A stretch of 64,000 bases of DNA from Escherichia coli. GTDB taxonomy: Bacteria > Pseudomonadota > Gammaproteobacteria > Enterobacterales > Enterobacteriaceae. A program made the position numbers and the translations under genes. Location: assembly GCF_965641715.1 (NCBI RefSeq), contig NZ_OZ282453.1; one strand, given 5' to 3'. A model generated the notes under the pieces. It saw only the letters and a program-made list of their open reading frames with translations, did not search any database and was not told the DNA's origin. Each line of letters opens with the position of its first letter. Position 1 is the first letter of the stretch. Positions 3,194 through 14,897 of this stretch are shown here, one piece after another.

Positions 3194-3211
3194 ATGGTGC
3201 CGATAATAGGA
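3194..3211. repeat. attR of P4-like satellite: 18-bp direct repeat (atggtgccgataatagga) of the thrW 3' end
   Basis: identical 18-mer at 14821..14838 inside the tRNA-Thr 3' end. Confidence 0.6.
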
Positions 3212-3391
3212 ATAAAATAAAACAATAACATACTGAAAAATATACAAAAAAGAAACACACCGTTAAGTAATGCCCCCGAAAATGCCCCCATAATAGATGC
3301 CGCAGTAAGTCGACTTGTCCCAAGGACTGGTAAGTAATGTCAATAGCGGGAACAAAGAGACATTACTTACCGAGAATGGAATCCATTTAGG

Positions 3392-4621
3392 TTATGCTGG
3401 CCAATCCCACTGCTGATAGGCAGAGAATAGGCGCGTGAGCTCAGCAGGCGCAAGAATATCAACAATATTAGCTCTGTAGCTATGCGATTTACCTAATGGA
3501 ACATTTTCGAAATGATTAGCTTGATAAGGATTAAAATCGTGAAGCTCACCTAATGTTGAGATATCGGTATTAATAGTTTTAAGCCAAGAAACAAGAATTA
3601 CTTTTGCCCCTGTTCTCTGTATGTAAGCTCTTGCCGATTCAAAACTATAGCCTCGAGTTGTTATATCATCTATAAGAAGTACTGTTTTACCAGGGCCTAA
3701 AGGTGGTTTTTTATAGGTAGTTCTAGGATTTCTGTGTGGCTGAGAATTAAGACAAATTGTATTAAGTTGATTGCAATGGTCAATTGCAACTCCCTCATTT
3801 CTTGCTTTTTGAGATTTTTTGGAAGTCGTATGCCTTAAAATAAGATCTGGGATATACGTCTTGCGAAAACATTTTCCAAATATTGAAATCGCTTCATCCA
3901 TGATATTATTCCCATATCCTTGCTTATGCCCTGGATAAACACTAACATAATTAATCATCTTATGAATGCCACTAAAATAGAGACTGGATATTAAGGCACT
4001 CGTCCAAAATTCAGGATGGCCTAATCCATGTTTAGCAGCAGCACGAGCATCTTCAGAGTAAAGAGTATACTCTTCCTTCATGGTGCTGAAAGGAGCAAGT
4101 GCATAGAAATTAAAATCACCATCGTGAATTTCATGACACCAAAGATGCTCTCTTAAACAGAAGGTATCTATAAATCTAGCAATATCTTTAGGGGTTGAAA
4201 ACTCGAAACCATAATCTGTTTTGTCTGCCCACCATGTAGCTCTTAAAAAGAGCAACTCACCATTAACTGCTGTTTGCATGTCGTTTATCGAAGCACCAAT
4301 GTACAAAGTTTCTGTACTTTCCCAACCCATCAAATCAAGGACATATTTTGTAGCATCCGCAGTTGGCTTCCCTGGAATGCTCTTATCTTTCGCTCGACAA
4401 AGATATTTAAATTCTCCCCAATGCTTTTGTAACACATCCTCTAAAGGGGTTCTTTCATCTCCGACAACCCAACCCCTGTTAGTGAATACAACAAACTCGA
4501 TCTTTTTAGTTCTGAAATATCTAATTAATTTATCTACCTCTGCAAAGATTTCGCTATCGATCTTTCCCTTAGGCACAAGAATATCTTCAACACTAAGAAT
4601 CACACCCTTAATTTTGCTCAT
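3392..4621 (-). CDS. satellite cargo: protein with N-terminal Rossmann-like (possibly degenerate HAD-like) domain and C-terminal type I phosphoribosyltransferase domain; ShosT-like candidate
   Basis: PRTase signature VLLIDDITTRG near C-terminus; N-terminal YIGASINDMQTAVNG resembles HAD motif IV; AT-rich; 10-nt gap to upstream gene. Confidence 0.55.
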   Translation of the reverse strand: MSKIKGVILSVEDILVPKGKIDSEIFAEVDKLIRYFRTKKIEFVVFTNRGWVVGDERTPLEDVLQKHWGEFKYLCRAKDKSIPGKPTADATKYVLDLMGWESTETLYIGASINDMQTAVNGELLFLRATWWADKTDYGFEFSTPKDIARFIDTFCLREHLWCHEIHDGDFNFYALAPFSTMKEEYTLYSEDARAAAKHGLGHPEFWTSALISSLYFSGIHKMINYVSVYPGHKQGYGNNIMDEAISIFGKCFRKTYIPDLILRHTTSKKSQKARNEGVAIDHCNQLNTICLNSQPHRNPRTTYKKPPLGPGKTVLLIDDITTRGYSFESARAYIQRTGAKVILVSWLKTINTDISTLGELHDFNPYQANHFENVPLGKSHSYRANIVDILAPAELTRLFSAYQQWDWPA

Positions 4622-4631
4622 TTCATCTTCC

Positions 4632-5696
4632 TTAGAGATCTAAGCTCTGCTGTATCGGCTGTGCTTTTAAATCATGATTATTATTCAAAATATAATTACT
4701 CATCTCATTCAATTCAAAAGGCATTAAAAAAGATAAAGAATTTCTATTTTCTTCAGCAAACTTCAATTCTGGTCTACTTTCATACGTAGTAGGAAGATAT
4801 GGACTCGCTATCTTTTTTGCATACTTAAAAGCATAATCAACAGTATGTGATGTTCCACTTTTAATATTCCATTCGACTGGTATTAGTGAATCACATAAAG
4901 CAGCCTGGATTCTGTTACGCCTTACAAAATTTTCTGCGCTATATGTTTGTTCAGGTAGATACTCGGTAACGATAGCCCCACCATTAGAAACTATTGCTCG
5001 ATATAACTCTTTAGAACCTTTCGGATACTCGACAAAAATCCCATTACCCAATACCGCAATAGTTGGAATGCCATATCTCAGCGATTCATAATGACAACAT
5101 TGATCTATTCCTGTCGCCAAACCACTGACTGTTGAAACATCTTTAGAATATAGAGAAGAAACAATCAGTTTTACTAGAAAAATACCATCATCCGTTGGCT
5201 TTCGTGTCCCCACAATTGCAACAGATTTCTTATTAAGAAGTTCATAATTACCATGAACAAAAATCCAAAATGGCGGATCGCTTATGTTCTTTAATGATTG
5301 AGGAAATGTAGCCTGATCATAAAAGGTGAGCACAATACCATTTTTATTGAGTTCACGAGCTCTCTCCAGTCCCTTAGACCAAAGGTCTTGTTGAAATGTT
5401 TCCCAAGATATATTTTTAGGCAAGGAAACTCTTAGATATCCTGCCAAGGCATCAGCTGTATTATCTTTTAATATATTCTTAAATCCAATTTTGGATTGAT
5501 AGATTTTGCGAAGCGTCCAGTAACCAACCCCCTTTAGACAAGTTAAGGCAAGAAACGCAATAATTTCATTTTTCCAAAACTCTCTAACTTCAGTGTAATC
5601 TTTATATTCCATTTTACGTTTGCCTTTTAGATTACAACCCGTACTCAACACAAAAAATTTAGAAAATTGTTGCCAAAAGCATATTATAAATAGCAT
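4632..5696 (-). CDS. satellite cargo: DprA/Smf-like (SLOG-type Rossmann) protein; ShosA-like candidate; probable start at MEYKDY (5612)
   Basis: DprA core motifs VAIVGTRKPT, GLATGID, TIAVLGNGI, YPKGSKELYRAI, FVRRNRIQAAL; AT-rich. Confidence 0.55.
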   Translation of the reverse strand: MLFIICFWQQFSKFFVLSTGCNLKGKRKMEYKDYTEVREFWKNEIIAFLALTCLKGVGYWTLRKIYQSKIGFKNILKDNTADALAGYLRVSLPKNISWETFQQDLWSKGLERARELNKNGIVLTFYDQATFPQSLKNISDPPFWIFVHGNYELLNKKSVAIVGTRKPTDDGIFLVKLIVSSLYSKDVSTVSGLATGIDQCCHYESLRYGIPTIAVLGNGIFVEYPKGSKELYRAIVSNGGAIVTEYLPEQTYSAENFVRRNRIQAALCDSLIPVEWNIKSGTSHTVDYAFKYAKKIASPYLPTTYESRPELKFAEENRNSLSFLMPFELNEMSNYILNNNHDLKAQPIQQSLDL

Positions 5697-5980
5697 CTTA
5701 CCGCAGATTTGTGAAGCAACAACATCCCTAGGAGAAACCTTAACCTAGCGGGACAACTTACTGACCAATCCTCAGCTAGCTCATTGAATTGCCCCCATAT
5801 CGCACAGCCCCGCACGCCTGCCCGCTTCGCTTAACAGACTGGTTTTCATGCACCTCATAAATCGTCTCAGAAGCCACCAAACAAGGGCTTTCTCGTCAAA
5901 AATGGTGCATAAGACTCATGCGTTTTCATGCGCCATAGACATGCACTCATGCGCTCTCAGGCCAGCCAGGGAAAAGGTGT

Positions 5981-6005
5981 TAAAAATCCCGGTACTCGAC
6001 CGGGA
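5981..6005 (-). terminator. Rho-independent terminator downstream of delta/ogr-like gene
   Basis: stem tcccggtactcgaccggga followed by U-run on the minus-strand transcript. Confidence 0.5.
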
Positions 6006-6027
6006 TTACGTAGGCGTTTTTTTCTAA

Positions 6028-6309
6028 TCAGACAGGAATCTGCTGACGGCTTGACAGTTTTGACGCGGAGCCATAGCGATTGAGCGTTTGCTGTTGTTTT
6101 ACCGGGGTTTGTGATTTGTCTGGTTCCTGTTCATTGCGCCGGGGTTTCATGATTATCTTATCCACACTCTCCAGTGCCGTAAATGTGCAGGAACATTCCA
6201 GATTCTGGCACTGATACCACGAGCGTTTAACTGACGGAGCTTCATAGGCTGCTGTTCTGGCGTGTGCAACTGTACCGCATTCCGGACATTTAAGTGCCAT
6301 TAATATCAC
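6028..6309 (-). CDS. Ogr/Delta-family zinc-finger late transcription activator
   Basis: CPECG...HARTA...YQCQNLECSCTF matches the Ogr/Delta C4 zinc-finger pattern. Confidence 0.8.
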   Translation of the reverse strand: MILMALKCPECGTVAHARTAAYEAPSVKRSWYQCQNLECSCTFTALESVDKIIMKPRRNEQEPDKSQTPVKQQQTLNRYGSASKLSSRQQIPV

Positions 6310-6857
6310 TCCTGTATATCGTTAATGTCATTCAGGCGTTGCTGAAAACGCAGATGTTGTGCCGGGGTGTAAGAGCCCTGGCAATCACGAATCATACTGG
6401 GGTCAGGCATCAAACCGGATTCATCCAGGATCTCACGATAATCCCCGGCAATTTCAGGCGGTGTTATTGCCAGCTGGCGAACCAGAGCACTGCGTAATAT
6501 ACGGGACGCAACGTCAACCCCTCCGCGCCCCTTCAGGAACGGAGCCAGTGCAGATGTCAGGGCTGCCCCATTCGCCTGCATAAAATTGCTGAGAGCGGCT
6601 TCTGTGCAGGCCTCCATCAGTAAATGCTGCGAGTAAATGCATTCGCGCGCAGCACAGTTAATTTGCCATTTCAGCACATCCAGACGTTCCCGCAGGAATT
6701 CGAGCTGTCGGGCATAATCTGCTGGTTTTTCTGTGGCAGCGAGGAGAGATGTTATCTGTTGTTCAACGGCTTTTCGGCTCTCACTATGTCTGGCCCACAG
6801 AATACGGGCATTCCGAAAACTGGTAAGTACCTGGTCAGGTGTGCCTCGGGCCGTCAT
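6306..6857 (-). CDS. psu: Psu-like (polarity suppression / capsid decoration) protein
   Basis: 183 aa, recalled similarity to P4 Psu (KWQ.N.AA, FMQ.NGAAL.SALAP, FTPAQ); translationally coupled to sid and delta. Confidence 0.55.
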   Translation of the reverse strand: MTARGTPDQVLTSFRNARILWARHSESRKAVEQQITSLLAATEKPADYARQLEFLRERLDVLKWQINCAARECIYSQHLLMEACTEAALSNFMQANGAALTSALAPFLKGRGGVDVASRILRSALVRQLAITPPEIAGDYREILDESGLMPDPSMIRDCQGSYTPAQHLRFQQRLNDINDIQE

Positions 6858-7597
6858 ACTGCTTTCTCCTTCTCAGCAAGTTCCTGACGAACCTTTATTT
6901 TATGCATAGCTGCTGGAGAGAGTTGATTACTGAAATCCAGACGCGCCGCATAATCCGGGGCAACTCCCGCCAGTTTAAACACCGGGTCCTGTTCAGGCAT
7001 CGCATCGTTAGCCAGAGCCGGTCTGGTGATATGTTTATGAATAAAGTCTTTCAGCACTGTGTCCGGGTCATTAACTGAATTCACCACACCCACAACGGCA
7101 CTGGCTTCCCGGCCCATTGTGGATTTAAGCAGGCTCAGCGTCTGAATAAGCGCTTTTCCATGCGACTGCATAAAATCCTCCCAGATTTGTTTTGCGCGAA
7201 TATCCACAAGAATGTTATGCGCGTGGATATACTTTCCGGCTAATTCCGCAGCTTTCTGCGGCAAAAGTGCATTTTCGCTTTCCTGAGCCGCCAGCAGCTC
7301 ATCAAAATCCTCAAGCGTTTCTCGTCCCAGCGCAATTTCCGTGCGCAGTTTTTTCATTTCCTTTGAGACCACGCCCTGACTTTCACGAAACAGCGTGCGC
7401 CACTCCTCATTCAGTGTATTCGTCGTGGATTCCATTTCAGCGCGACGCTGGCGGATTGTCGCAATATTATCCGCTGCCGCTTTCTGCTGACGACGTGCTT
7501 CAAGCCATGCGTTTCTGGCTGTGTTCATGGTTTCCAGTGCCCGCTGCGTTACAGCCGGAAAAGTGGAAAGGTTGTTATTCACTGCGGTGTTGTTCAT
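6854..7597 (-). CDS. sid: Sid-like capsid size-determination (external scaffold) protein
   Basis: 247 aa helical protein first in the late operon upstream of psu/delta, size and position as P4 Sid. Confidence 0.5.
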   Translation of the reverse strand: MNNTAVNNNLSTFPAVTQRALETMNTARNAWLEARRQQKAAADNIATIRQRRAEMESTTNTLNEEWRTLFRESQGVVSKEMKKLRTEIALGRETLEDFDELLAAQESENALLPQKAAELAGKYIHAHNILVDIRAKQIWEDFMQSHGKALIQTLSLLKSTMGREASAVVGVVNSVNDPDTVLKDFIHKHITRPALANDAMPEQDPVFKLAGVAPDYAARLDFSNQLSPAAMHKIKVRQELAEKEKAV

Positions 7598-7631
7598 GAC
7601 TTCTCCTGTCGGGTTGGTTCGTTACGTCAAT

Positions 7632-7687
7632 TGTGTCGTGGCTGACACAAGCACACTATCGGTGCTCAGTGTGTGGTGGCTGGCACA
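7632..7687 (-). promoter_or_regulatory. Two TGT-N12-ACA dyads (Ogr/Delta-type activator sites) upstream of sid
   Basis: TGT(7632-7634)-N12-ACA(7647-7649) and TGT(7670-7672)-N12-ACA(7685-7687), 35-90 bp upstream of sid start. Confidence 0.45.
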
Positions 7688-7775
7688 ACGGGCGCTTGCG
7701 GTTATTCAGACGTGGCTATGAAAGCCAGCCAGATAAAAATGCCCACTGTTTCAGTCTGCTTTATGTCCCTGATGC

Positions 7776-7964
7776 GGTGGAACAGGTGAAACATGTGTTA
7801 CAGCTTTGTTTTATAAATCATTTATATACACTGCACCGGTGGAACATCGCGGGTAACAAGGTGGAACAGCGGATTGGCTGGCGTTACATCTGTTCCACCT
7901 CACTATTTCAGAAGGTGGAACAGGTTCAGCCCCTGTAAAATACGGTTGTTCCACCTGTTTCACC
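7776..7964. repeat. Iteron cluster: 6 perfect GGTGGAACA/TGTTCCACC 9-mers plus 2 variants in both orientations (crr/ori-like)
   Basis: copies at 7776, 7838, 7860, 7891(inv), 7914, 7947(inv); variants at 7785 and 7956; directly downstream of primase gene. Confidence 0.55.
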
Positions 7965-7998
7965 TGTTACCCTTAATAAATAAGACTCACGCAAAGCC

Positions 7999-10671
7999 TT
8001 AACCCGGCACCTCGCTGTTGAAGACATAGAGCCTGCGGGGATTCATCTCTGGCGGGCGAATGGTTGTCTGGAGTTTGCCATCAGTGGAGGGCAGCAGGTA
8101 TCCACGATCTGCGCACAGACGCGCCACCTTGCGCGGGTCAAATCCCCTGCAGATTTCTTTCCAGCCGGACGGCATGACATAAAACGTAGTGACAGCTTCC
8201 GTGCCCTGCGCGGTACTGCCTTTCTCCACCCTGCGCCAGCCCACCATATTGGCGGGGCGGTTGCGCTCGTCATACCAGTCTGCAAAGCGGCTGTACTGAT
8301 TCGCGGTAAAGAAACTGCGAACCTGCTCCAGTGCGGCGATATCTTCCTGATTGGCGGTGTGCCCGCGCTCTTTCAGCCATGCGTTCAGGCAGACGCGGGT
8401 TGCCCGCAATGCTTCACCCTCAGGCCAGCCGGTGATACCCTGACGGGTTGCCAGTTCACCTGCCATCGCCACCAGTGCAAAGCGGTTCACAGCCCGGCCC
8501 ACCTGATTGCCTGCATCTTTCGGAGTCAGGGCGGCAGCATATTCCTTCATCAGCGATTTTGCCTGTGCCGTTAGTCCGTTAAGATCAGCGGTCAGTGCTT
8601 TCAGCCACTCCCGGAACGGCGAACCGTAGTAGCAGGACGTGGCCCATTCAAGATGCTCTGCCAGAGCCTTGCCGCTGTCGAAGCCGTGCAGCTCCTCAAA
8701 AACGCCAAACTTCCCGGAATCGCTGGGGATCTGGATCATCCTGACTTCCATCCCGGCAAAAGTACGCTCACCGGCCTTTGCCGCATGTTCGGTCAGAGAT
8801 AACTCGCCAGTTGAAAAGAACAACAGGCGCCACTGCTTACGGGTACGCAGTTCACCGTCCGTACCGGCACGACCCTTGCCCTGACCGTTTGCCAGCATGT
8901 AGGCGATATTGCCTGCCTCGCGTCCGTCAACTTCCCGGATCTCATCAAGCATCATGGCGGCATCGTTGCGGCGGCTGGCACATCCCTCCAGCGCGTTGCC
9001 GGTGGCCCGCCATGTCTGCCAGTAGTCAGGCCCGCCGCAGACGGAGGTTGCCGCTTTCATGGTGGTGGTCTTACCGTCTGTCGATTCCCCTTTGAGGTGG
9101 TAGCCGCCGCCGTCCATACCAACCAGCCGTAACAGTGGTGCAGCAAAGGCCAGGCTGACAGCAAATGCCACGCGGGAGTTGCCGGTACAGTAGCGGGATA
9201 CGTTCTCCCGCCATTCCTCTGTTGTGCCCGACACGCGGAAATCACGCCCCTGCACGGAAGTGGTCTGGAGAATGACACCCTCTGCACCTTCACCGCTGAC
9301 CTCATCCTGCAGGACGTAAACCTGACCATGCCAGCCAGTACGGCTGACGCAGGTCACGCGACGTTCCGGTTTACACAGTGAGATATATTCCATCAGGCGT
9401 GCGCGTGCCTCACCGGTGGTGCTGATATAAGACAGCCCGTTAACAAGCAGTACCCGGCGCAGTTCCTCACCACTGCCGCTCAGCATTTCCATCGGCATCG
9501 CCCAGCGGCGACGCTCACCCCACGTATCTTCCCATTCCAGCAGTCGTCCGAAGTTACCGCCATCGGCATCGCAGGTGATTGCCGTCACGCGCAGCGGGCT
9601 GCATATTTTGACGTTCTGGATCTCCGTCTCACCGTTGCGCTGTACCTGCTTTTCATACCAGAGATATTCCTGGGTAAGACGGAACCCGTGCGGCAGTTGC
9701 GTGCGGCCTTCCCCGCACAGTACCAGACCGTTGCGAAAGGCTTCACGGGCACGGGTAATACCGTGCTCCCGATGAAAGTCATTCCAGTCAGCCTTAATCT
9801 CTCCTGGTGGCAGCGTCATCCAGCCGCCAACAGCTTTTGCCGCCCGTTCAGCAAAGGCTCTGCCGGGATTCTCCCCCCCGTCCTGAAAATCGTTATCACC
9901 GGCGATGATAATTTTTACCTCAGGCCAGCGTGCCCGCAGCGACTGCGCCACATTGGGCAGGTTGCCCGCAGATATGGCAGCCACTACGCATCCGGCAGTG
10001 AGCTGGCTTACCGTCAGCGCCGTAGCGTAACCTTCGGTAATCACCACCTGTACCGGTGGTTCAGACGGTAACGGGCTGAGCGACACAAACGCGCCTTTCA
10101 TCGTGCTGCCGGGCAGTATGCTTTTTTCACCCGTCGGGGCGATAAGCTGTGCACCGGTCACGGCTCCGGTGTTGGTCGTGAGTGGTAACAGCAGGGAACC
10201 AGCAGGAAAATCCTTACCGCTGATATGCTGCACGCTTCCGGTCAGAGAGGCCGGGTATCCGGCGAACCCTTTTCCTGCCAGATAGGCACTTTCTCCCGTG
10301 TGGCTCTCTTTCATCAGCGTCGCCACGGTAAGGCTCATGTCGCGTTTAGGGGCTTTTTGTCTGGCAGGCTTAACAGGCAGTTCCTGCACATCCGGCACAT
10401 TAAGCACCTGCGCCACCTGCTGCGCAGCCTTTCTGACGTTGTAGCCGGTTACGAGCTTAACCAGATCCAGACCGTCACCATTGCCACACTGGCTGCAGAT
10501 CCACGTCCCGCGCCCGTCAAGGTCATCGAGGCGAAAACGATCCTTGCCCCCACATTTCGGGCAGGGACCGTGCCTGCCGTTTTCAGGTACATCAATACGC
10601 AGCATATGCAGAATAACGGGCCATTTCCCCCGCGCGGCGGCTGAAATCTGCGTAACCGTCTGTATTGTCAT
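7999..10671 (-). CDS. P4 alpha-like primase/helicase (zinc finger + toprim + D5-type NTPase)
   Basis: N-terminal CPKCGG...CSQCG, Walker A GESTDGKTT, 890 aa. Confidence 0.8.
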   Translation of the reverse strand: MTIQTVTQISAAARGKWPVILHMLRIDVPENGRHGPCPKCGGKDRFRLDDLDGRGTWICSQCGNGDGLDLVKLVTGYNVRKAAQQVAQVLNVPDVQELPVKPARQKAPKRDMSLTVATLMKESHTGESAYLAGKGFAGYPASLTGSVQHISGKDFPAGSLLLPLTTNTGAVTGAQLIAPTGEKSILPGSTMKGAFVSLSPLPSEPPVQVVITEGYATALTVSQLTAGCVVAAISAGNLPNVAQSLRARWPEVKIIIAGDNDFQDGGENPGRAFAERAAKAVGGWMTLPPGEIKADWNDFHREHGITRAREAFRNGLVLCGEGRTQLPHGFRLTQEYLWYEKQVQRNGETEIQNVKICSPLRVTAITCDADGGNFGRLLEWEDTWGERRRWAMPMEMLSGSGEELRRVLLVNGLSYISTTGEARARLMEYISLCKPERRVTCVSRTGWHGQVYVLQDEVSGEGAEGVILQTTSVQGRDFRVSGTTEEWRENVSRYCTGNSRVAFAVSLAFAAPLLRLVGMDGGGYHLKGESTDGKTTTMKAATSVCGGPDYWQTWRATGNALEGCASRRNDAAMMLDEIREVDGREAGNIAYMLANGQGKGRAGTDGELRTRKQWRLLFFSTGELSLTEHAAKAGERTFAGMEVRMIQIPSDSGKFGVFEELHGFDSGKALAEHLEWATSCYYGSPFREWLKALTADLNGLTAQAKSLMKEYAAALTPKDAGNQVGRAVNRFALVAMAGELATRQGITGWPEGEALRATRVCLNAWLKERGHTANQEDIAALEQVRSFFTANQYSRFADWYDERNRPANMVGWRRVEKGSTAQGTEAVTTFYVMPSGWKEICRGFDPRKVARLCADRGYLLPSTDGKLQTTIRPPEMNPRRLYVFNSEVPG

Positions 10672-11051
10672 ACTTCCCCCTGATACAACGTCACACCAGT
10701 ACTGCAGAAGTCATCAAAGGTCGCCGGAAGCGTGCGGTACATCTCCGCCATTACTTCACAGCCGCGCGCGGTCAGTACCGGCGGCGCGGTCAGCAGTGAC
10801 GGCTCCAGCATGTCAGTCAGCAGTGCCAGCGCGGCAGCGGCGCCCTGTGCTTCGCCGTACTCGTTAATCAGTGCGCACTCGATATGCAGCGCAATGGCCA
10901 TTTCAATACGCTCCACCGTCAGGCTGTGCGGACCATACTGATCACTGCCAGTTTCGTTCAGCATTTTCTGCCGCCATGCTGAAGCAATAGCCCGCCGGTA
11001 AAGCGCGGTTGTCATTTCTGCCGGGAAAATGGAAACCTGCGGCTGGTTCAT
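10668..11051 (-). CDS. hypothetical satellite protein
   Basis: ORF translationally coupled (4-nt overlap) to primase gene. Confidence 0.4.
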   Translation of the reverse strand: MNQPQVSIFPAEMTTALYRRAIASAWRQKMLNETGSDQYGPHSLTVERIEMAIALHIECALINEYGEAQGAAAALALLTDMLEPSLLTAPPVLTARGCEVMAEMYRTLPATFDDFCSTGVTLYQGEV

Positions 11052-11332
11052 CTGGCACCTCCTTCAATCAGTGCACAGCTGTGCGCAATATCCGTCAAAT
11101 CTGCCCGCAGGTACTCCATCAGCGCGGCGACACCATGCGCACAGCCAGCGTCCAGTGCTCCGGCCTGAGACGGGTATTCAGAAAAGAGAAGCTGGAGCAT
11201 GTCGCAGGCATTTCTTGCGCGGGTCAGCTTTCCGAAACTGTCCTCTGACAACCCATAGGCAAAAGCACCGGTATTGTGTTTTTCAGGCAAAGTGTGGCCC
11301 TGAGCACCGTTGTGCCCGTTTGAAATATTCAT
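11048..11332 (-). CDS. hypothetical satellite protein
   Basis: ORF coupled by 4-nt overlap to downstream gene. Confidence 0.35.
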   Translation of the reverse strand: MNISNGHNGAQGHTLPEKHNTGAFAYGLSEDSFGKLTRARNACDMLQLLFSEYPSQAGALDAGCAHGVAALMEYLRADLTDIAHSCALIEGGAR

Positions 11333-11363
11333 CGTGGATTACTCCGTTTTCAGCGGTATTTTG

Positions 11364-11724
11364 TCAGAGAAACTTTGAATAGTGACCGTCGTCAGGCTCA
11401 GCAGAACGCCGTATGCTACGCTCCCGCCAGCGGATAAATAGCACAGACGGATGCAGTGTCAGCGGGCCGGAACCACTACCGCCTGCAGGAGCTGGTGCAG
11501 GCTTAAAGAGCGGTACATCAAACAGGCGCGTATACCGCTGTTCAAACCATGCCAGAGGGCAGGAAGAAAGCTGGTTGTCGCTGTCATGACGTATCAGCAC
11601 TTCACAGCTGAATTCAGGATTAACCAGCGCCACAGAGGGCGAGGCTTCAATTAATCGGATAATCGTGACCGTCCAGCCACGTTCATGCTGCCAGCGTTCG
11701 CCGGGGTGCGGATAATTACGCATG
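11364..11724 (-). CDS. hypothetical satellite protein (start MRNYPHPG at 11724)
   Basis: start ATG overlaps stop of upstream small ORF (ATGCGTAA). Confidence 0.35.
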
Positions 11725-11892
11725 TTCACCTCCGCAGGGAATGCGCCCGGCAAAGCTCAGTACATAATCCGGGGCAAGTCTTCGCCGCGCTGACCGCTCG
11801 TTATCTGCGGTGATCCTTAACATCACAGGACGGGCATTGCGTTGACTGCGGTTGATCGCCGCAAATAACCAGGTACACTTCTGTTTAGCCAT
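11716..11892 (-). CDS. small protein, possibly host cell division inhibitor Icd-like (58 aa)
   Basis: hand-translated MAKQKCTWLFAAINRSQRNARPVMLRITADNERSARRRLAPDYVLSFAGRIPCGGEHA; below the 60-aa cutoff of the ORF track. Confidence 0.35.
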   Translation of the reverse strand: MAKQKCTWLFAAINRSQRNARPVMLRITADNERSARRRLAPDYVLSFAGRIPCGGEHA

Positions 11893-11983
11893 CTTCGTTA
11901 CCTCTTATAACGGTTGGTTAAATGCCCGATTTGTGTTCCCGCACAATCGGGCATTGCTTTTACAAGCGAACTATACTTACAAT

Positions 11984-12027
11984 GGTAATTACCATGTAGT
12001 CATCATATTCCAGGGTAATTACCATGT
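11984..12027. promoter_or_regulatory. Tandem operator-like repeats GGTAATTACCATGT (each containing palindrome GGTAATTACC), 30 bp apart
   Basis: copies at 11984-11997 and 12014-12027; second overlaps the ATG of the small + strand ORF. Confidence 0.45.
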
Positions 12028-12197
12028 CAACACCACAAGAGAAACGTTCCCCACCATTCCAAATGCGTCTTACCGACGATTTTAGGTTGCAACTCGAAAA
12101 AGAAATGCGCAAAGATGGAGATAGCGCGTTGGCAACTTGGATTAAAAGAATTTTACGTAAAGAACTACAATCACGCGGGATTGACCCTAAAGGTTAA
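12024..12197 (+). CDS. small ribbon-helix-helix-like DNA-binding protein (57 aa)
   Basis: hand-translated MSTPQEKRSPPFQMRLTDDFRLQLEKEMRKDGDSALATWIKRILRKELQSRGIDPKG; strand-helix-helix pattern; only + strand gene in the satellite. Confidence 0.4.
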   Translation: MSTPQEKRSPPFQMRLTDDFRLQLEKEMRKDGDSALATWIKRILRKELQSRGIDPKG

Positions 12198-12229
12198 TCA
12201 GTTAAATATTACTAACTATCAATTAAGGC

Positions 12230-12520
12230 TTAGGGAGTAGGTGATAATCTATTCCCTTTATTAATTGCTCTTGCCTTATTTCTCATCCCCTCAAACTGTT
12301 GACCTGAGTTTTCTTCAAACCCATCTCGCCACTTATAATAATCAGCAGCGCGCCATCGGGACATCCGACCTATTTTTATAGGTTTTGGAAAGCGATTCAG
12401 AGAAATCAATCGATAAATCCATTTGTCACTTAATAAACAATCGGAAGTAATAAACTTCATATCGATCAGAGAATCCATTGAAGGTCGTTGCAAAGTAGTA
12501 TTATCATGTTTAGATAACAT
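12230..12520 (-). CDS. alpA: AlpA-family phage transcriptional regulator
   Basis: KFITSDCLLSDKWIYRLISLNRFPKPIKIGRMSRWRAADYYKWRDGF matches AlpA-type HTH proteins. Confidence 0.7.
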   Translation of the reverse strand: MLSKHDNTTLQRPSMDSLIDMKFITSDCLLSDKWIYRLISLNRFPKPIKIGRMSRWRAADYYKWRDGFEENSGQQFEGMRNKARAINKGNRLSPTP

Positions 12521-12645
12521 TCATCATTCTCCGTTTATCTAAGTCTATTGGCTTCAACACGGAAAATTAAAACATAGGTTATAAATGAGAAAAATGTGAC
12601 TAATGAAAAAAATCCAAAATCATTAGTCACAATAATTGTTAACAT

Positions 12646-13470
12646 TTAGTTAAACTTAATGTTTTTCATGCAACTACGTAGCAAGCTAACAACAGTATCA
12701 TAGCTCAAAGGTGGTTCTCCGGTCTTAGGCCAGAACTCACTGGCATGTTGAAAAAGATAATCAGCTATCGCTGCTGGACTCTCTCTTCTTAGCCTCATAT
12801 CACGATGATAGAGCGAAATAATAGCCATGAGTATTTCAGTTCGAGGAACAGCATGTTTTTGTTTTTGCGCCTCAGATTGTGATTTATATTTATTGGCGTT
12901 TTTTATCCGTTTTTGTTCGCATAAGACTATATCAATGAATTTTTGAATCTGTACCTTTGTAATCCACAAAACCTCAAAAAGATAATAATTTTCTTTTTCA
13001 TCATAATTTACATAAAGAATTACCTTACAATTTATATTAGGCGTACCCGCCAGTAGAAAATGAATAGGCCAGGAATCCGGTTGCCCCTCATGCTTAACTA
13101 ACAGATCTTTATATTCATAATCAACAGCCCATAAACCGGATATAAAGCATCGAATAAAACCATTTTTATCAATTAAATTATTTTCATCAGGGATTCTTAT
13201 AGAGCTTAAGTCTGACAACATAATATTGCCATTTCTATCTCGTGGTAAATATTTCAGATTAGATAAGAACTCATCCAGTTGACCATCAATCTTCAAACCA
13301 CATGAAACATCATACTCATCATCATGGAATTCCATGCATAGCTCTACATCTCGTTCTCTGGCAAACCAGAGTATATCCTTTTCACTACAACCAATTTTTT
13401 CTGAAGCTTCATCCAACTGGTAGTAATCTCTGAGCAGAGAATCAGTATTATTAATTTTTAAAATATTCAT
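12646..13470 (-). CDS. hypothetical AT-rich protein of unknown function, translationally coupled to integrase
   Basis: 274 aa; ATGA start/stop overlap with int; low GC relative to flanks; no motif recognised. Confidence 0.4.
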   Translation of the reverse strand: MNILKINNTDSLLRDYYQLDEASEKIGCSEKDILWFARERDVELCMEFHDDEYDVSCGLKIDGQLDEFLSNLKYLPRDRNGNIMLSDLSSIRIPDENNLIDKNGFIRCFISGLWAVDYEYKDLLVKHEGQPDSWPIHFLLAGTPNINCKVILYVNYDEKENYYLFEVLWITKVQIQKFIDIVLCEQKRIKNANKYKSQSEAQKQKHAVPRTEILMAIISLYHRDMRLRRESPAAIADYLFQHASEFWPKTGEPPLSYDTVVSLLRSCMKNIKFN

Positions 13471-14726
13471 TTATGAGTACCAATTAGCTCAGATAAATAA
13501 TTAGCATACCATTGCATCATTTCTCTTCTCCCTTCGAGATATTGGGCATGGTTATAAATTCCACGAATAGAGTTTTTGTCCGAATGAGCAAGCTGGGTTT
13601 CAATCCAAGCGCTGTTAAATCCTTTCTCATGTAGAATTGTACTCATCGTATGCCTGAAACCATGTCCCGTAACACGCCCTGCATATCCAATACGTTTAAA
13701 CACCTGATTGATGCTTGCTTCACTCATAAATTTGCTAGGATCGTTGCGTCCAGGGAACATCAGCGGGTAGTTCCCAGTTAGTTCTTTCAAACTTTTGAGA
13801 TGGGATAATGCTTGTTTTGGTAACGGGACAATATGGCTCCTACGCATTTTCATACGTTCTTTTGGGATCTCCCACACCGCATTATCAAAATCCACCTCTC
13901 GCCACTCACCTGCTCGTAGTTCTCCAGTTCGTAGACCTGTCAGGATAAGTAAATGCGCCCCCAACAATACAATTGGACTTCCTGAATAAGAATTAAGGGC
14001 ATTAAAGAACTCCGGTAGTTCGTTGGCTTTGAGGAATGGATAGTGGACTGCTTCATGTCCTTGCATCGCACTGGCAAGATCCGGTGCCGGATTGTAGATT
14101 GCCCTACCCGTTACGATGGCATAGCGAAAAACTTCACCGCATCGCTGACGGACTTTCTTCGCTTTCTCCATAGCGCCTCGAGCTTCTATCAACCTCAGAA
14201 CTTCAAGCAGTTCAAGGGGCTGAATATCAGCTATAGGTCTGTGCCCAATATGCGGAAAAATGTCTTTCTCAAATGCCTCAATGATGTCGGAAGCATAGCC
14301 CTCAGACCATTTGGATGATTTCATTTTGTGCCACTCTAACGCCACTTCTCTGAATGGGTTAAGTGTCTCAATCGCTGCGTTTAAAGCCTGCTTTTTGGCT
14401 TTTTTGACTTCGCCGGGATCTTCACCTGCTGCGAGTAGTTTCTTTGCGTCTTCTCGTTTTTGTCTGGCATCAGCAAGTGTGACTGTTGGATAAACACCAA
14501 AGGACAATCGTTTCTCTTTACCAGCAAAACGGTATTTCATACGCCAGTAACGCGAGCCATTAGGTTCGACCTGAAGGTATAGGCCACCTCCATCAAACAG
14601 CTTATAGCTCTTCTCTTTTCCTTTCGCAGCTTCAACCTTGCGGGCATTCAGCATCATTGGGGGCACATTTCCTAGACCGAACAGAACATGCCCCTGATTG
14701 TGCCCCCAACCGCGTGTTGATTTCAA
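13467..14726 (-). CDS. int: P4-type tyrosine integrase (probable start at MLNARKV, 14654)
   Basis: KEKSYKLFDGGGLYLQVEPNGSRYWRMKYRFAGKEK N-terminus and C-terminal HGFRHT...Y catalytic region; adjacent to tRNA-Thr. Confidence 0.9.
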   Translation of the reverse strand: MKSTRGWGHNQGHVLFGLGNVPPMMLNARKVEAAKGKEKSYKLFDGGGLYLQVEPNGSRYWRMKYRFAGKEKRLSFGVYPTVTLADARQKREDAKKLLAAGEDPGEVKKAKKQALNAAIETLNPFREVALEWHKMKSSKWSEGYASDIIEAFEKDIFPHIGHRPIADIQPLELLEVLRLIEARGAMEKAKKVRQRCGEVFRYAIVTGRAIYNPAPDLASAMQGHEAVHYPFLKANELPEFFNALNSYSGSPIVLLGAHLLILTGLRTGELRAGEWREVDFDNAVWEIPKERMKMRRSHIVPLPKQALSHLKSLKELTGNYPLMFPGRNDPSKFMSEASINQVFKRIGYAGRVTGHGFRHTMSTILHEKGFNSAWIETQLAHSDKNSIRGIYNHAQYLEGRREMMQWYANYLSELIGTHK

Positions 14727-14820
14727 GAGACAAGGGTTGACCTCAAACGTATGAAAACAACGTAATATATATGTTTTTAAATGATTTTGTTGATGTGGGT
14801 TGACTTGGGAAAACTAGGTG

Positions 14821-14838
14821 ATGGTGCCGATAATAGGA
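14821..14838. repeat. attL core: 18 bp at thrW 3' end, repeated at 3194..3211
   Basis: exact 18-mer match. Confidence 0.6.
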
Positions 14839-14897
14839 GTCGAACCTACGACCTTCGCATTACGAATGCGCTGCTCTACCAACTGAGCTATATCGGC
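14822..14897 (-). tRNA. thrW: tRNA-Thr (anticodon CGU)
   Basis: reverse complement reads GCCGATATAGCTCAGTTGGTAGAGCAGCGCATTCGTAATGCGAAGGTCGTAGGTTCGACTCCTATTATCGGCACCA. Confidence 0.9.

What the first reader, a model, noticed from the sequence alone, without database searches (positions are those of the whole stretch)
12646..13470. Orphan AT-rich 274-aa gene translationally coupled to the satellite integrase
Its ATG overlaps the int stop (ATGA), it is markedly more AT-rich than int and alpA on either side, and no conserved motif is recognisable. The int-alpA interval is a second position where satellites carry variable cargo; this could be a single-gene defence or abortive-infection protein, or a regulator.
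Basis: inference. Interest (0 to 1): 0.55.

Follow-up and report, generated by a model that had tools for sequence, protein, structure and literature searches.

The report
Integrase-overlapping partner gene of a P4-like satellite
The 274-codon gene is real and belongs to a large uncharacterised family that always sits just after a mobile element's integrase gene, usually overlapping it, and before its alpA gene; this matches the "integrase-overlapping gene" (iolg) reported as needed for excision of small Vibrio phage satellites, so it is more likely an integrase partner than a defence gene.

Summary
The ORF at 12646-13470 (-) is real. Its ATG overlaps the int stop codon (ATGA), no ribosome-binding site precedes it, and dN/dS is about 0.10.

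It is not an orphan. It has 55-60% identical relatives in Pantoea, Erwinia and Citrobacter, about 46 remote clusters, and 197 AlphaFold-database hits, all uncharacterised. In every genomic context I read, the order is P4-type int, then this gene, then a small AlpA-like gene, on one strand.

The same family supplies 14 of 20 genes just downstream of int (12 of the 14 overlapping it by ATGA) in elements integrated at the end of fis. I retrieved those with the att repeat of PICMI satellites. In PICMI, such a gene (iolg) was reported as necessary for helper-induced excision.

Alleles reassort between conserved flanks: Int is 94-96% identical where this protein is 28-33% identical. In distant relatives the Rfam int-alpA RNA lies between int and this gene.

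There is no match to Pfam, PADLOC, PHROGs, NCBIfam, PDB sequences or phage records. The satellite's canonical hotspot already carries ShosTA.

Best reading: an iolg-type Int/AlpA accessory protein (confidence 0.5). The defence reading is unsupported.

The parts
12646..13470 (-). ORF274 (called X below), an iolg-type integrase-overlapping gene. The model shows an N-terminal beta-alpha-alpha-beta-beta winged-helix-like domain (aa 14-62, acidic), a variable alpha/beta middle domain (63-190), a basic linker, and a C-terminal helical domain (about 205-270).
13467..13470 (-). ATGA overlap of the int stop codon and the ORF274 start codon. No Shine-Dalgarno sequence lies upstream, so translational coupling is inferred.
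   Evidence: The same -4 geometry is seen in L016, L010 and L007, and in 17 of 20 fis-att elements.
13467..14726 (-). P4-type tyrosine integrase. The longest ORF starts at 14726; related RefSeq records annotate the start equivalent to 14657.
14822..14897 (-). tRNA-Thr(CGT). Its 3' end (14822-14839) is the attL core of the satellite.
14764..14793 (-). Sigma-70-like site (TCAACA-18-TATATT) between the tRNA and int; a candidate int-ORF274 promoter. It is a consensus match only.
12583..12631 (-). Terminator-like hairpin directly after the ORF274 stop (TGTGACTAATGA-N13-TCATTAGTCACA followed by a T-run). A stem-loop is present at the same place in most, though not all, related loci, with different sequences.
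12527..12566 (-). Conserved inverted repeat in the alpA leader. It pairs the alpA Shine-Dalgarno sequence (GGAG) with an upstream CTCC/TCCG.
12230..12520 (-). alpA/vis-like gene (96 aa), the third member of the int-X-alpA module.
3195..3212 (-). attR: a 17/18 repeat of the tRNA-Thr 3' end. The satellite spans about 3195-14839 (11.6 kb).

Best explanation
ORF274 is an 'integrase-overlapping gene' (iolg-type) protein, a non-enzymatic accessory of the satellite's site-specific recombination module. It is transcribed with int from the att-proximal promoter and translated by coupling to int (ATGA). The transcript ends at the hairpin after the ORF, so ORF274 is made whenever, and roughly as much as, Int is made. 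alpA downstream is controlled separately, with its own leader hairpin. By analogy with PICMI115, Int and this protein are present constitutively, and helper-induced AlpA completes a complex that excises the element. The winged-helix-like N-terminal domain and the basic C-terminal helical domain are the likely docking modules, for DNA or for Int/AlpA. The fast-diverging middle domain would set specificity. Shown here: gene structure, coupling geometry, purifying selection, strict synteny, family membership, allele reassortment. Inferred: co-expression, participation in excision, what each domain binds.
Against: I could not obtain the sequence of the PICMI115 prototype IOLG, so homology to the tested protein is unproven. 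The fis-att element I checked (L208) has a DUF927 replicase, which is not one of the primase types in the PICMI model. The published iolg deletion was complemented only with int/iolg together, and the authors themselves write 'probably IOLG', so a polar effect on int is not excluded. P4 excises with Int and Vis alone and has no such gene, so the function is not universal. X alleles reassort independently of Int (Int 94-96%, X 28-33%), which is unexpected for an obligate Int-docking partner. The N-terminal domain is acidic (pI 4.3). It is not significantly related to AlpA or HTH_17 by profile comparison.
Confidence: 0.5

Rival explanations
1. It is the element's sensor or regulator. A DNA-binding regulator sits in the int-alpA control region. 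Its variable middle domain recognises a helper-phage or host signal and sets the lysogeny/induction switch (alpA or int expression). This would be functionally like SaPI Stl or the LuxR-family regulator of PIME1 elements.
For: It has a winged-helix-like N-terminus and a basic C-terminal helical domain. The middle domain is far more variable than the termini: mean pairwise identity 0.15 against 0.32 and 0.36, with length 133-194 aa. Discrete alleles are exchanged between near-identical flanks, as with immunity regions. In PIME1 a regulator gene in the regulatory region, oriented divergently from alpA, is essential for excision (preprint 10.64898/2026.01.12.698999).
Against: It is co-directional with int and separated from alpA by a terminator-like hairpin, not divergent from the regulated operon. 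I could define no operator. The palindrome after the stop behaves like a terminator: its structure recurs while its sequence varies. The putative recognition helix is acidic. A separate Arc-like repressor gene faces a strong promoter-like site (11 of 12 consensus matches) further downstream. [quoted passage not shown]
Confidence: 0.2
2. It is accessory cargo that acts against other phages or elements. This would be a single-gene defence, superinfection-exclusion or helper-interference protein parked next to int.
For: The region is AT-rich. The slot is variable across elements. Alleles are swapped by recombination. The gene is absent from many P4-like satellites. IS1 interrupts it in three genomes, so it is dispensable for the host.
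Against: Neither X nor 7 other family members has a significant PADLOC match. There is no enzymatic or toxin-like domain. The family was seen only immediately downstream of a P4-type int gene, with an alpA-like gene after it wherever enough sequence was held, which is not how free-standing defence genes are distributed. Known P4 defence hotspots lie elsewhere. This satellite already carries ShosTA at the canonical site. dN/dS gives no sign of positive selection within an allele class.
Confidence: 0.15
3. It is a lysogeny-establishment or other moron-type function co-expressed with Int. Examples would be transient repression of replication during integration, or modulation of host factors, with no direct role in recombination chemistry.
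For: It is co-expressed with int. P4 also has an unrelated gene of similar size (cII, 264 aa) directly downstream of int on the same strand.
Against: P4 cII is unrelated (hhalign probability 0.1%), and one relative (L004) carries both. I have no positive evidence for this reading.
Confidence: 0.1

Closest known systems
IOLG / iolg (integrase overlapping gene) of PICMI satellites of Vibrionaceae (Barcia-Cruz et al. 2024, PMC10803314)
   Same: Its start overlaps the int stop by ATGA. It lies between int and alpA on the same strand. It has no known domain. It is highly diverse (13 families in PICMI). X-family proteins are the genes just downstream of int in 14 of 20 fis-att elements retrieved with the PICMI att repeat, 12 of them overlapping int by ATGA.
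   Different: The host element here is an 11.6-kb P4-like satellite of E. coli with sid/psu/delta and a DUF927 primase, integrated at tRNA-Thr rather than fis. I did not compare sequences with the PICMI115 prototype. No excision phenotype is known for this gene.
P4 Vis / AlpA / TorI-type recombination directionality factors (HTH_17 / Xis winged helix)
   Different: It is three times larger and has three domains. The putative recognition helix is acidic. Pfam and hhalign relations are not significant. A genuine AlpA gene is already present downstream.
LuxR-family regulator of PIME1 integrative mobilizable elements (bioRxiv 10.64898/2026.01.12.698999)
   Same: It is a non-integrase gene in the element's regulatory region, next to alpA, that is required together with int and alpA for excision.
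   Different: It is an unrelated family, divergently oriented, and a recognisable transcription factor.
Rfam RF02996 int-alpA RNA motif
   Same: In distant X-family loci the motif fills the int-to-X spacer. It starts 7-9 nt after the int stop in four of five loci (96 nt in L013) and ends 16-22 nt before the X start.
   Different: It is absent from the window, where direct ATGA coupling replaces it. Rfam lists it as an sRNA gene, not as a leader.
P4 cII (264 aa, directly downstream of P4 int)
   Same: Same relative position, strand and size.
   Different: No detectable homology. P4 cII has its own Pfam family (PF26915), which X does not match.

Membership tests
iolg (integrase overlapping gene, defined by position in PICMI) | Start codon overlaps the int stop by 1, 4 or 13 nt, with ATGA most frequent | tested here: met
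   ATGA at 13467-13470; definition from PMC10803314
iolg (integrase overlapping gene, defined by position in PICMI) | Lies between int and alpA on the same strand, with unknown function | tested here: met
   no Pfam, PADLOC, PHROG or NCBIfam hit
iolg (integrase overlapping gene, defined by position in PICMI) | Sequence relation to int-overlapping genes of elements that use the PICMI att site (3' end of fis) | tested here: met
   14 of 20 int-downstream ORFs match the X-family HMM, E 5e-57 to 4.5e-14. The element checked (L208) has DUF927, so it is not a canonical PICMI.
iolg (integrase overlapping gene, defined by position in PICMI) | Homology to the experimentally tested PICMI115 IOLG | not testable with these tools
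   The supplements give locus tags only, and no look-ups remained.
iolg (integrase overlapping gene, defined by position in PICMI) | Required for helper-induced excision | not testable with these tools
   Needs genetics. Literature evidence exists for PICMI115 only.
HTH_17 / MerR / Xis-type winged-helix DNA-binding domain | Significant profile match (Pfam HTH_17 or MerR, or to AlpA sequences) | tested here: not met
   Best Pfam i-Evalue 0.011 in 2 of 22 members; hhalign against an AlpA alignment gives probability 0.4%
HTH_17 / MerR / Xis-type winged-helix DNA-binding domain | Beta-alpha-alpha-beta-beta fold similar to solved members | tested here: inconclusive
Known anti-phage defence systems (PADLOC-DB) | Match to any defence-protein model | tested here: not met
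   No match for X. Of 7 other family members, 6 have no match and 1 has only a chance-level match (E 0.044). The neighbouring ShosTA scores E 1e-90, showing the library works on this element.
P4 cII (PF26915) | Sequence similarity | tested here: not met
   hhalign probability 0.1%; no Pfam hit
SaPI Stl-like master repressor | Transcribed divergently from the operon it represses; binds an operator and a helper protein | tested here: not met
   It is co-directional with alpA and separated by a terminator-like hairpin. Binding is not testable here.

The most novel reading that the evidence does not exclude
The X/iolg proteins are a general, so far unrecognised third component of P4-type Int + AlpA recombination modules across Proteobacteria. 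The orphan Rfam 'int-alpA RNA' would then be the leader, or the int-to-X spacer element, of this gene rather than a free sRNA. The hypervariable middle domain would be a private specificity determinant. It would keep co-resident elements that share nearly identical Int, AlpA and att sites from excising, or being excised by, each other or the wrong helper.
Probability: 0.2. Interest if true: 0.75.

Novelty: new member of a known kind. Interest (0 to 1): 0.5.

Why it matters
[quoted passage not shown] This finding places a homologous, ATGA-coupled gene in a P4-like satellite of E. coli. There, P2/P4 genetics, att assays and biochemistry are routine, so the question becomes directly testable.

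It also shows three further things:
- The gene family reaches well beyond Vibrio.
- Its alleles reassort between conserved int and alpA flanks.
- In distant relatives a curated orphan RNA motif (int-alpA, RF02996) sits exactly between int and this gene, which gives that motif a candidate target.

Practically, it warns against scoring every AT-rich unknown gene next to an integrase as a defence candidate.

Tried and rejected
- **Family and structure searches that found nothing.** Pfam, PADLOC, PHROGs and NCBIfam on X and relatives. PDB sequence searches with full-length, N-terminal and C-terminal profiles gave only chance hits such as antibody heavy chains and haemagglutinin. Foldseek against BFVD gave nothing below E 0.05. 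tblastn against 50,697 phage records gave no match.
- **Genes in the same position, tested as relatives.** YfjH of CP4-57 (between intA and alpA, opposite strand) is unrelated. P4 cII is unrelated. The 212-aa gene in the leuX-type module is unrelated.
- **Searches limited by the tools.**
  - The genome-contig scan with the broad alignment A2 failed for lack of a conserved stretch. With A3 it gave only 2 loci.
  - A second homologue search with A2 added little because of the word index.
- **Extending the family to the metagenomic slot ORFs.** Iterative HMM extension of the C-terminal domain did not grow beyond L130 and L145. Only a weak enrichment of an [RK]HA motif supports further remote relatives (8 of 56, against 1.7 +/- 1.2 in shuffles).
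- **The hairpin after the stop codon as an operator.** I considered this and rejected it in favour of a terminator, because a stem-loop recurs at that place across loci while its sequence does not.
- **Co-variation of the Int C-terminus with X.** Only the last roughly 10 Int residues differ; the rest of the divergence is synonymous.
- **Literature.** The EcCIMP1 PICI paper and the jumbo-phage genomic-island paper held nothing relevant.

Full report
**What is at the coordinates.** The window carries an 11.6-kb P4-like satellite integrated at tRNA-Thr(CGT), next to proA, proB and phoE.
- The attL core is the tRNA 3' end at 14822-14839. A 17/18 repeat at 3195-3212 is attR.
- Reading on the minus strand, the order is: int, ORF274, alpA-like, a divergent 57-aa Arc-like gene, icd-like, three small ORFs including DUF5375, a Toprim/DUF927 primase, a sid-like gene, psu and delta.
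- After delta comes ShosA/ShosT, at the canonical defence hotspot.
- ORF274 (12646-13470, minus strand) is intact. Its ATG overlaps the int TGA as ATGA, and the 30 nt upstream hold no Shine-Dalgarno sequence.
- GC is 34.3% for the ORF, 45.3% for int, 36.8% for alpA and 59% for the primase. The AT-rich block therefore includes alpA and the intergenic region, not the ORF alone.
- Between E. coli and Citrobacter alleles, dN/dS is about 0.10 (int 0.05, alpA 0.08). For the more diverged pairs it is 0.03-0.08 in the terminal domains and 0.13-0.20 in the middle. This is a real protein under purifying selection.

**It is not an orphan.**
- The DNA occurs in 65 of 5426 complete E. coli genomes, always on the chromosome and annotated as hypothetical.
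- Proteins 55-60% identical occur in Pantoea, Erwinia and Citrobacter.
- A profile search of 1.8 billion representative proteins finds 46 clusters, nearly all 250-330 aa.
- Foldseek finds 197 AFDB50 entries with E up to 0.001. The 50 listed come from Enterobacterales, Aeromonas, Vibrio and Shewanella, and nearly all are named uncharacterised.
- The alignment has conserved N- and C-terminal blocks and a very variable middle. Mean pairwise identity is 0.32, 0.15 and 0.36, and middle length is 133-194 aa.

**Structure.**
- The AlphaFold2 model (pLDDT 80.5) has three parts:
  - a beta-alpha-alpha-beta-beta N-terminal domain;
  - an alpha/beta middle domain;
  - a low-confidence basic linker followed by a C-terminal helical domain.
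- Profile tests for HTH_17 or AlpA relatedness are not significant.
- The N-terminal domain is acidic (pI 4.3), whereas the linker and C-terminus are basic. DNA binding by the N-terminus is therefore only a possibility.
- No catalytic signature is conserved.

**Genomic context.** Every context I could read has a P4-type integrase (Arm-DNA-bind_3 + Phage_int_M + Phage_integrase), then X, then a small AlpA/HTH_17-like gene, all on one strand. This holds with Int identity as low as 27-47%.
- Spacing between the int stop and the X start is -11 to +3 nt in 12 of 16 related loci.
- L027 and L028 carry the identical X protein, in the same int-X arrangement, joined to different replication modules (D5_N/DUF5906 against DUF927).
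- The family is absent from 50,697 phage records and has no significant BFVD match.

**Allele reassortment.**
- E. coli elements L019 and L020 have Int 96% and 94% identical to the window's, and AlpA 73% identical. Their X proteins are only 28% and 33% identical, yet they are clear family members.
- Between L019 and L020 the flanks are 97-100% identical in DNA while X is 53-71% identical.
- The reverse also occurs: between the window and L031, int has dS 0.98 and X has dS 0.31.
- X alleles therefore form discrete classes that are exchanged by recombination in the conserved flanks.
- In the loci read, the allele class tracked the backbone type (sid/psu/delta type against a type that encodes a P2-like capsid gene) more than it tracked Int.
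- A satellite with the same backbone (primase 98.9% identical in DNA) at leuX has another integrase. In the same slot it carries an unrelated AT-rich 212-aa gene of PHROG 30524.

**Transcript architecture.**
- A 12-bp stem followed by a T-run comes right after the X stop (12583-12631). A stem-loop recurs at that place in most related loci with different sequences, as expected of a terminator.
- A second inverted repeat (12527-12566) pairs the alpA Shine-Dalgarno sequence. It shows what look like compensatory differences between loci, such as TCCGT/ACGGA against TCCTCT/AGAGGA.
- int-X thus looks like a bicistronic unit, with alpA controlled separately.

**The RNA link.**
- In the distant X loci with 91-183-nt int-to-X spacers (L011-L014, L025), the spacer is the Rfam int-alpA RNA (RF02996; 46.9-64.5 bits against a gathering score of 35.8). 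It ends 16-22 nt before the X start. The window lacks it.
- A metagenome scan with the motif core gave 120 loci, 74 of them with the full outer stem. All 20 loci I re-checked, 19 from those 74 and one without the stem, scored above the Rfam gathering score.
- In those loci int ends 6-20 nt upstream in nearly all cases where it was detectable. An ORF of at least 100 aa starts within about 40 nt downstream in 63 of 74. An alpA-like gene follows at +456 to +1210 nt.
- The slot ORFs are extremely diverse. The 63 ORFs fall into 46 BLAST clusters, and only 1 of 33 representatives has any Pfam hit.
- Only 3 to 5 of them are recognisable X-family members.

**The literature match.** Barcia-Cruz et al. 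2024 (PMC10803314) describe iolg in PICMI115 of Vibrio.
- It is a gene of unknown function that overlaps int by ATGA and lies in a six-gene element that also encodes alpA.
- Its deletion abolished helper-induced excision, packaging and transduction, and int/iolg in trans complemented the deletion.
- Of 35 PICMI subfamilies, 21 have such a gene (overlap 1, 4 or 13 nt), in 13 sequence families.
- The authors propose that Int and IOLG are constitutive and AlpA is phage-induced, and that the three proteins form the excision complex.

**My test of the link.** I scanned viral contigs with the PICMI att repeat, which is the 3' end of fis.
- 20 integrases had a downstream ORF, and 17 of those ORFs overlapped int by 4 nt.
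- 14 of the 20 matched the X-family HMM (E 5e-57 to 4.5e-14). 13 of these matches run through the N-terminal and middle domains. The C-terminal region seems to show a related NRxAxIKALL theme.
- The element I checked has a DUF927 replicase, so these are fis-integrated relatives rather than canonical PICMIs.
- I could not obtain the PICMI115 protein itself.
- No other paper in the library mentions iolg.
- The 2026 survey of P4 hotspots lists no int-alpA hotspot.

**Verdict.**
The 'orphan' label is wrong. The defence interpretation is unsupported.
- The best-supported reading is an iolg-type Int/AlpA accessory protein acting in excision or integration (confidence 0.5).
- The rivals are a sensor or regulator of the int/alpA switch (0.2), anti-phage or exclusion cargo (0.15), and another Int-co-expressed function (0.1).
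- It is a new member of a recently described but mechanistically unexplained kind.
- The extension to P4-like satellites, the allele reassortment and the association with the int-alpA RNA did not turn up in any paper my searches found.

Noticed in passing
window 3392-5696 (-): The satellite's canonical hotspot, after delta and before attR, carries a ShosTA defence system: ShosA at 4632-5696 (PADLOC E 3e-90) and ShosT at 3392-4621 (E 3e-94). Sister satellites carry Drt3a/b, retron St85 or an AAA ATPase there (L023, L024, L022).
   Followed up: partly
window 12527-12566 (-): A conserved inverted repeat in the alpA leader sequesters the alpA Shine-Dalgarno sequence. Related loci keep the pairing with different sequences (TCCGT/ACGGA, TCCTCT/AGAGGA, CCGCCGT/ACGGGGG). 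It may be a translational control element or a protein-binding site for alpA.
   Followed up: partly
L011 1456-1523, L012 1076-1143, L013 6914-6982, L014 1438-1504, L025 1677-1755, and 74 metagenome loci (L034-L152): Rfam int-alpA RNA (RF02996, listed as an sRNA) lies just after the int stop and just before a hyperdiverse ORF of about 130-350 aa that precedes alpA. The position suggests a cis-acting leader or spacer element rather than a free sRNA.
   Followed up: partly
window 12002-12197: A 57-aa Arc-like ribbon-helix-helix ORF (12024-12197, +; PHROG 228, E 0.002) faces a near-consensus promoter TTGACA-17-TATGAT (12030..12002, -) that points into the icd/primase operon. This may be the satellite's immunity switch. 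The ORF is 86-89% conserved in the Pantoea and Erwinia relatives.
   Followed up: no
L022 3565-4203 and L024 3559-4197 (E. coli, leuX-integrated sister satellites): With a different integrase, the slot after int holds an unrelated AT-rich (31% GC) 212-aa protein of PHROG 30524 (unknown function), 30 nt after the int stop. A 376-nt non-coding gap follows before alpA.
   Followed up: partly
NZ_LR134220.1, NZ_LS483296.1, NZ_CP138407.1 (hits H1, H2, H16): IS1 is inserted within ORF274 in three E. coli genomes: the 825-nt query is split over about 1.6 kb. The gene is therefore dispensable for the host.
   Followed up: no
L013 9296-9506: A distant int-X-alpA element also carries a P1/P7-type C4 antisense RNA (71.5 bits). 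An a1/b1 target match and an isrK match lie next to it, both below their Rfam gathering scores. This suggests antisense-RNA immunity in that element.
   Followed up: no
L155, L191, L204, L205, L223, L235 (fis-att elements): A second family of int-overlapping genes (280-290 aa, starting MxKxINSKxDLPKxF...) is not matched by the X-family HMM. It seems to resemble the slot ORF of metagenome locus L146.
   Followed up: no
L008, L019, L017: Satellite-like elements with the same type of int-X-alpA module encode a P2-like major capsid gene and an Icd/Ash-like gene. L008 and L019 also carry a DUF927 primase. They lack sid and psu, so this is a different satellite architecture.
   Followed up: no
window 11887-11958 (+): There is a sub-threshold Rfam match to the SymR antitoxin RNA (31.6 bits against a gathering score of 61; E 0.003). 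It lies antisense to the leader between the strong promoter and icd. It is probably chance.
   Followed up: no
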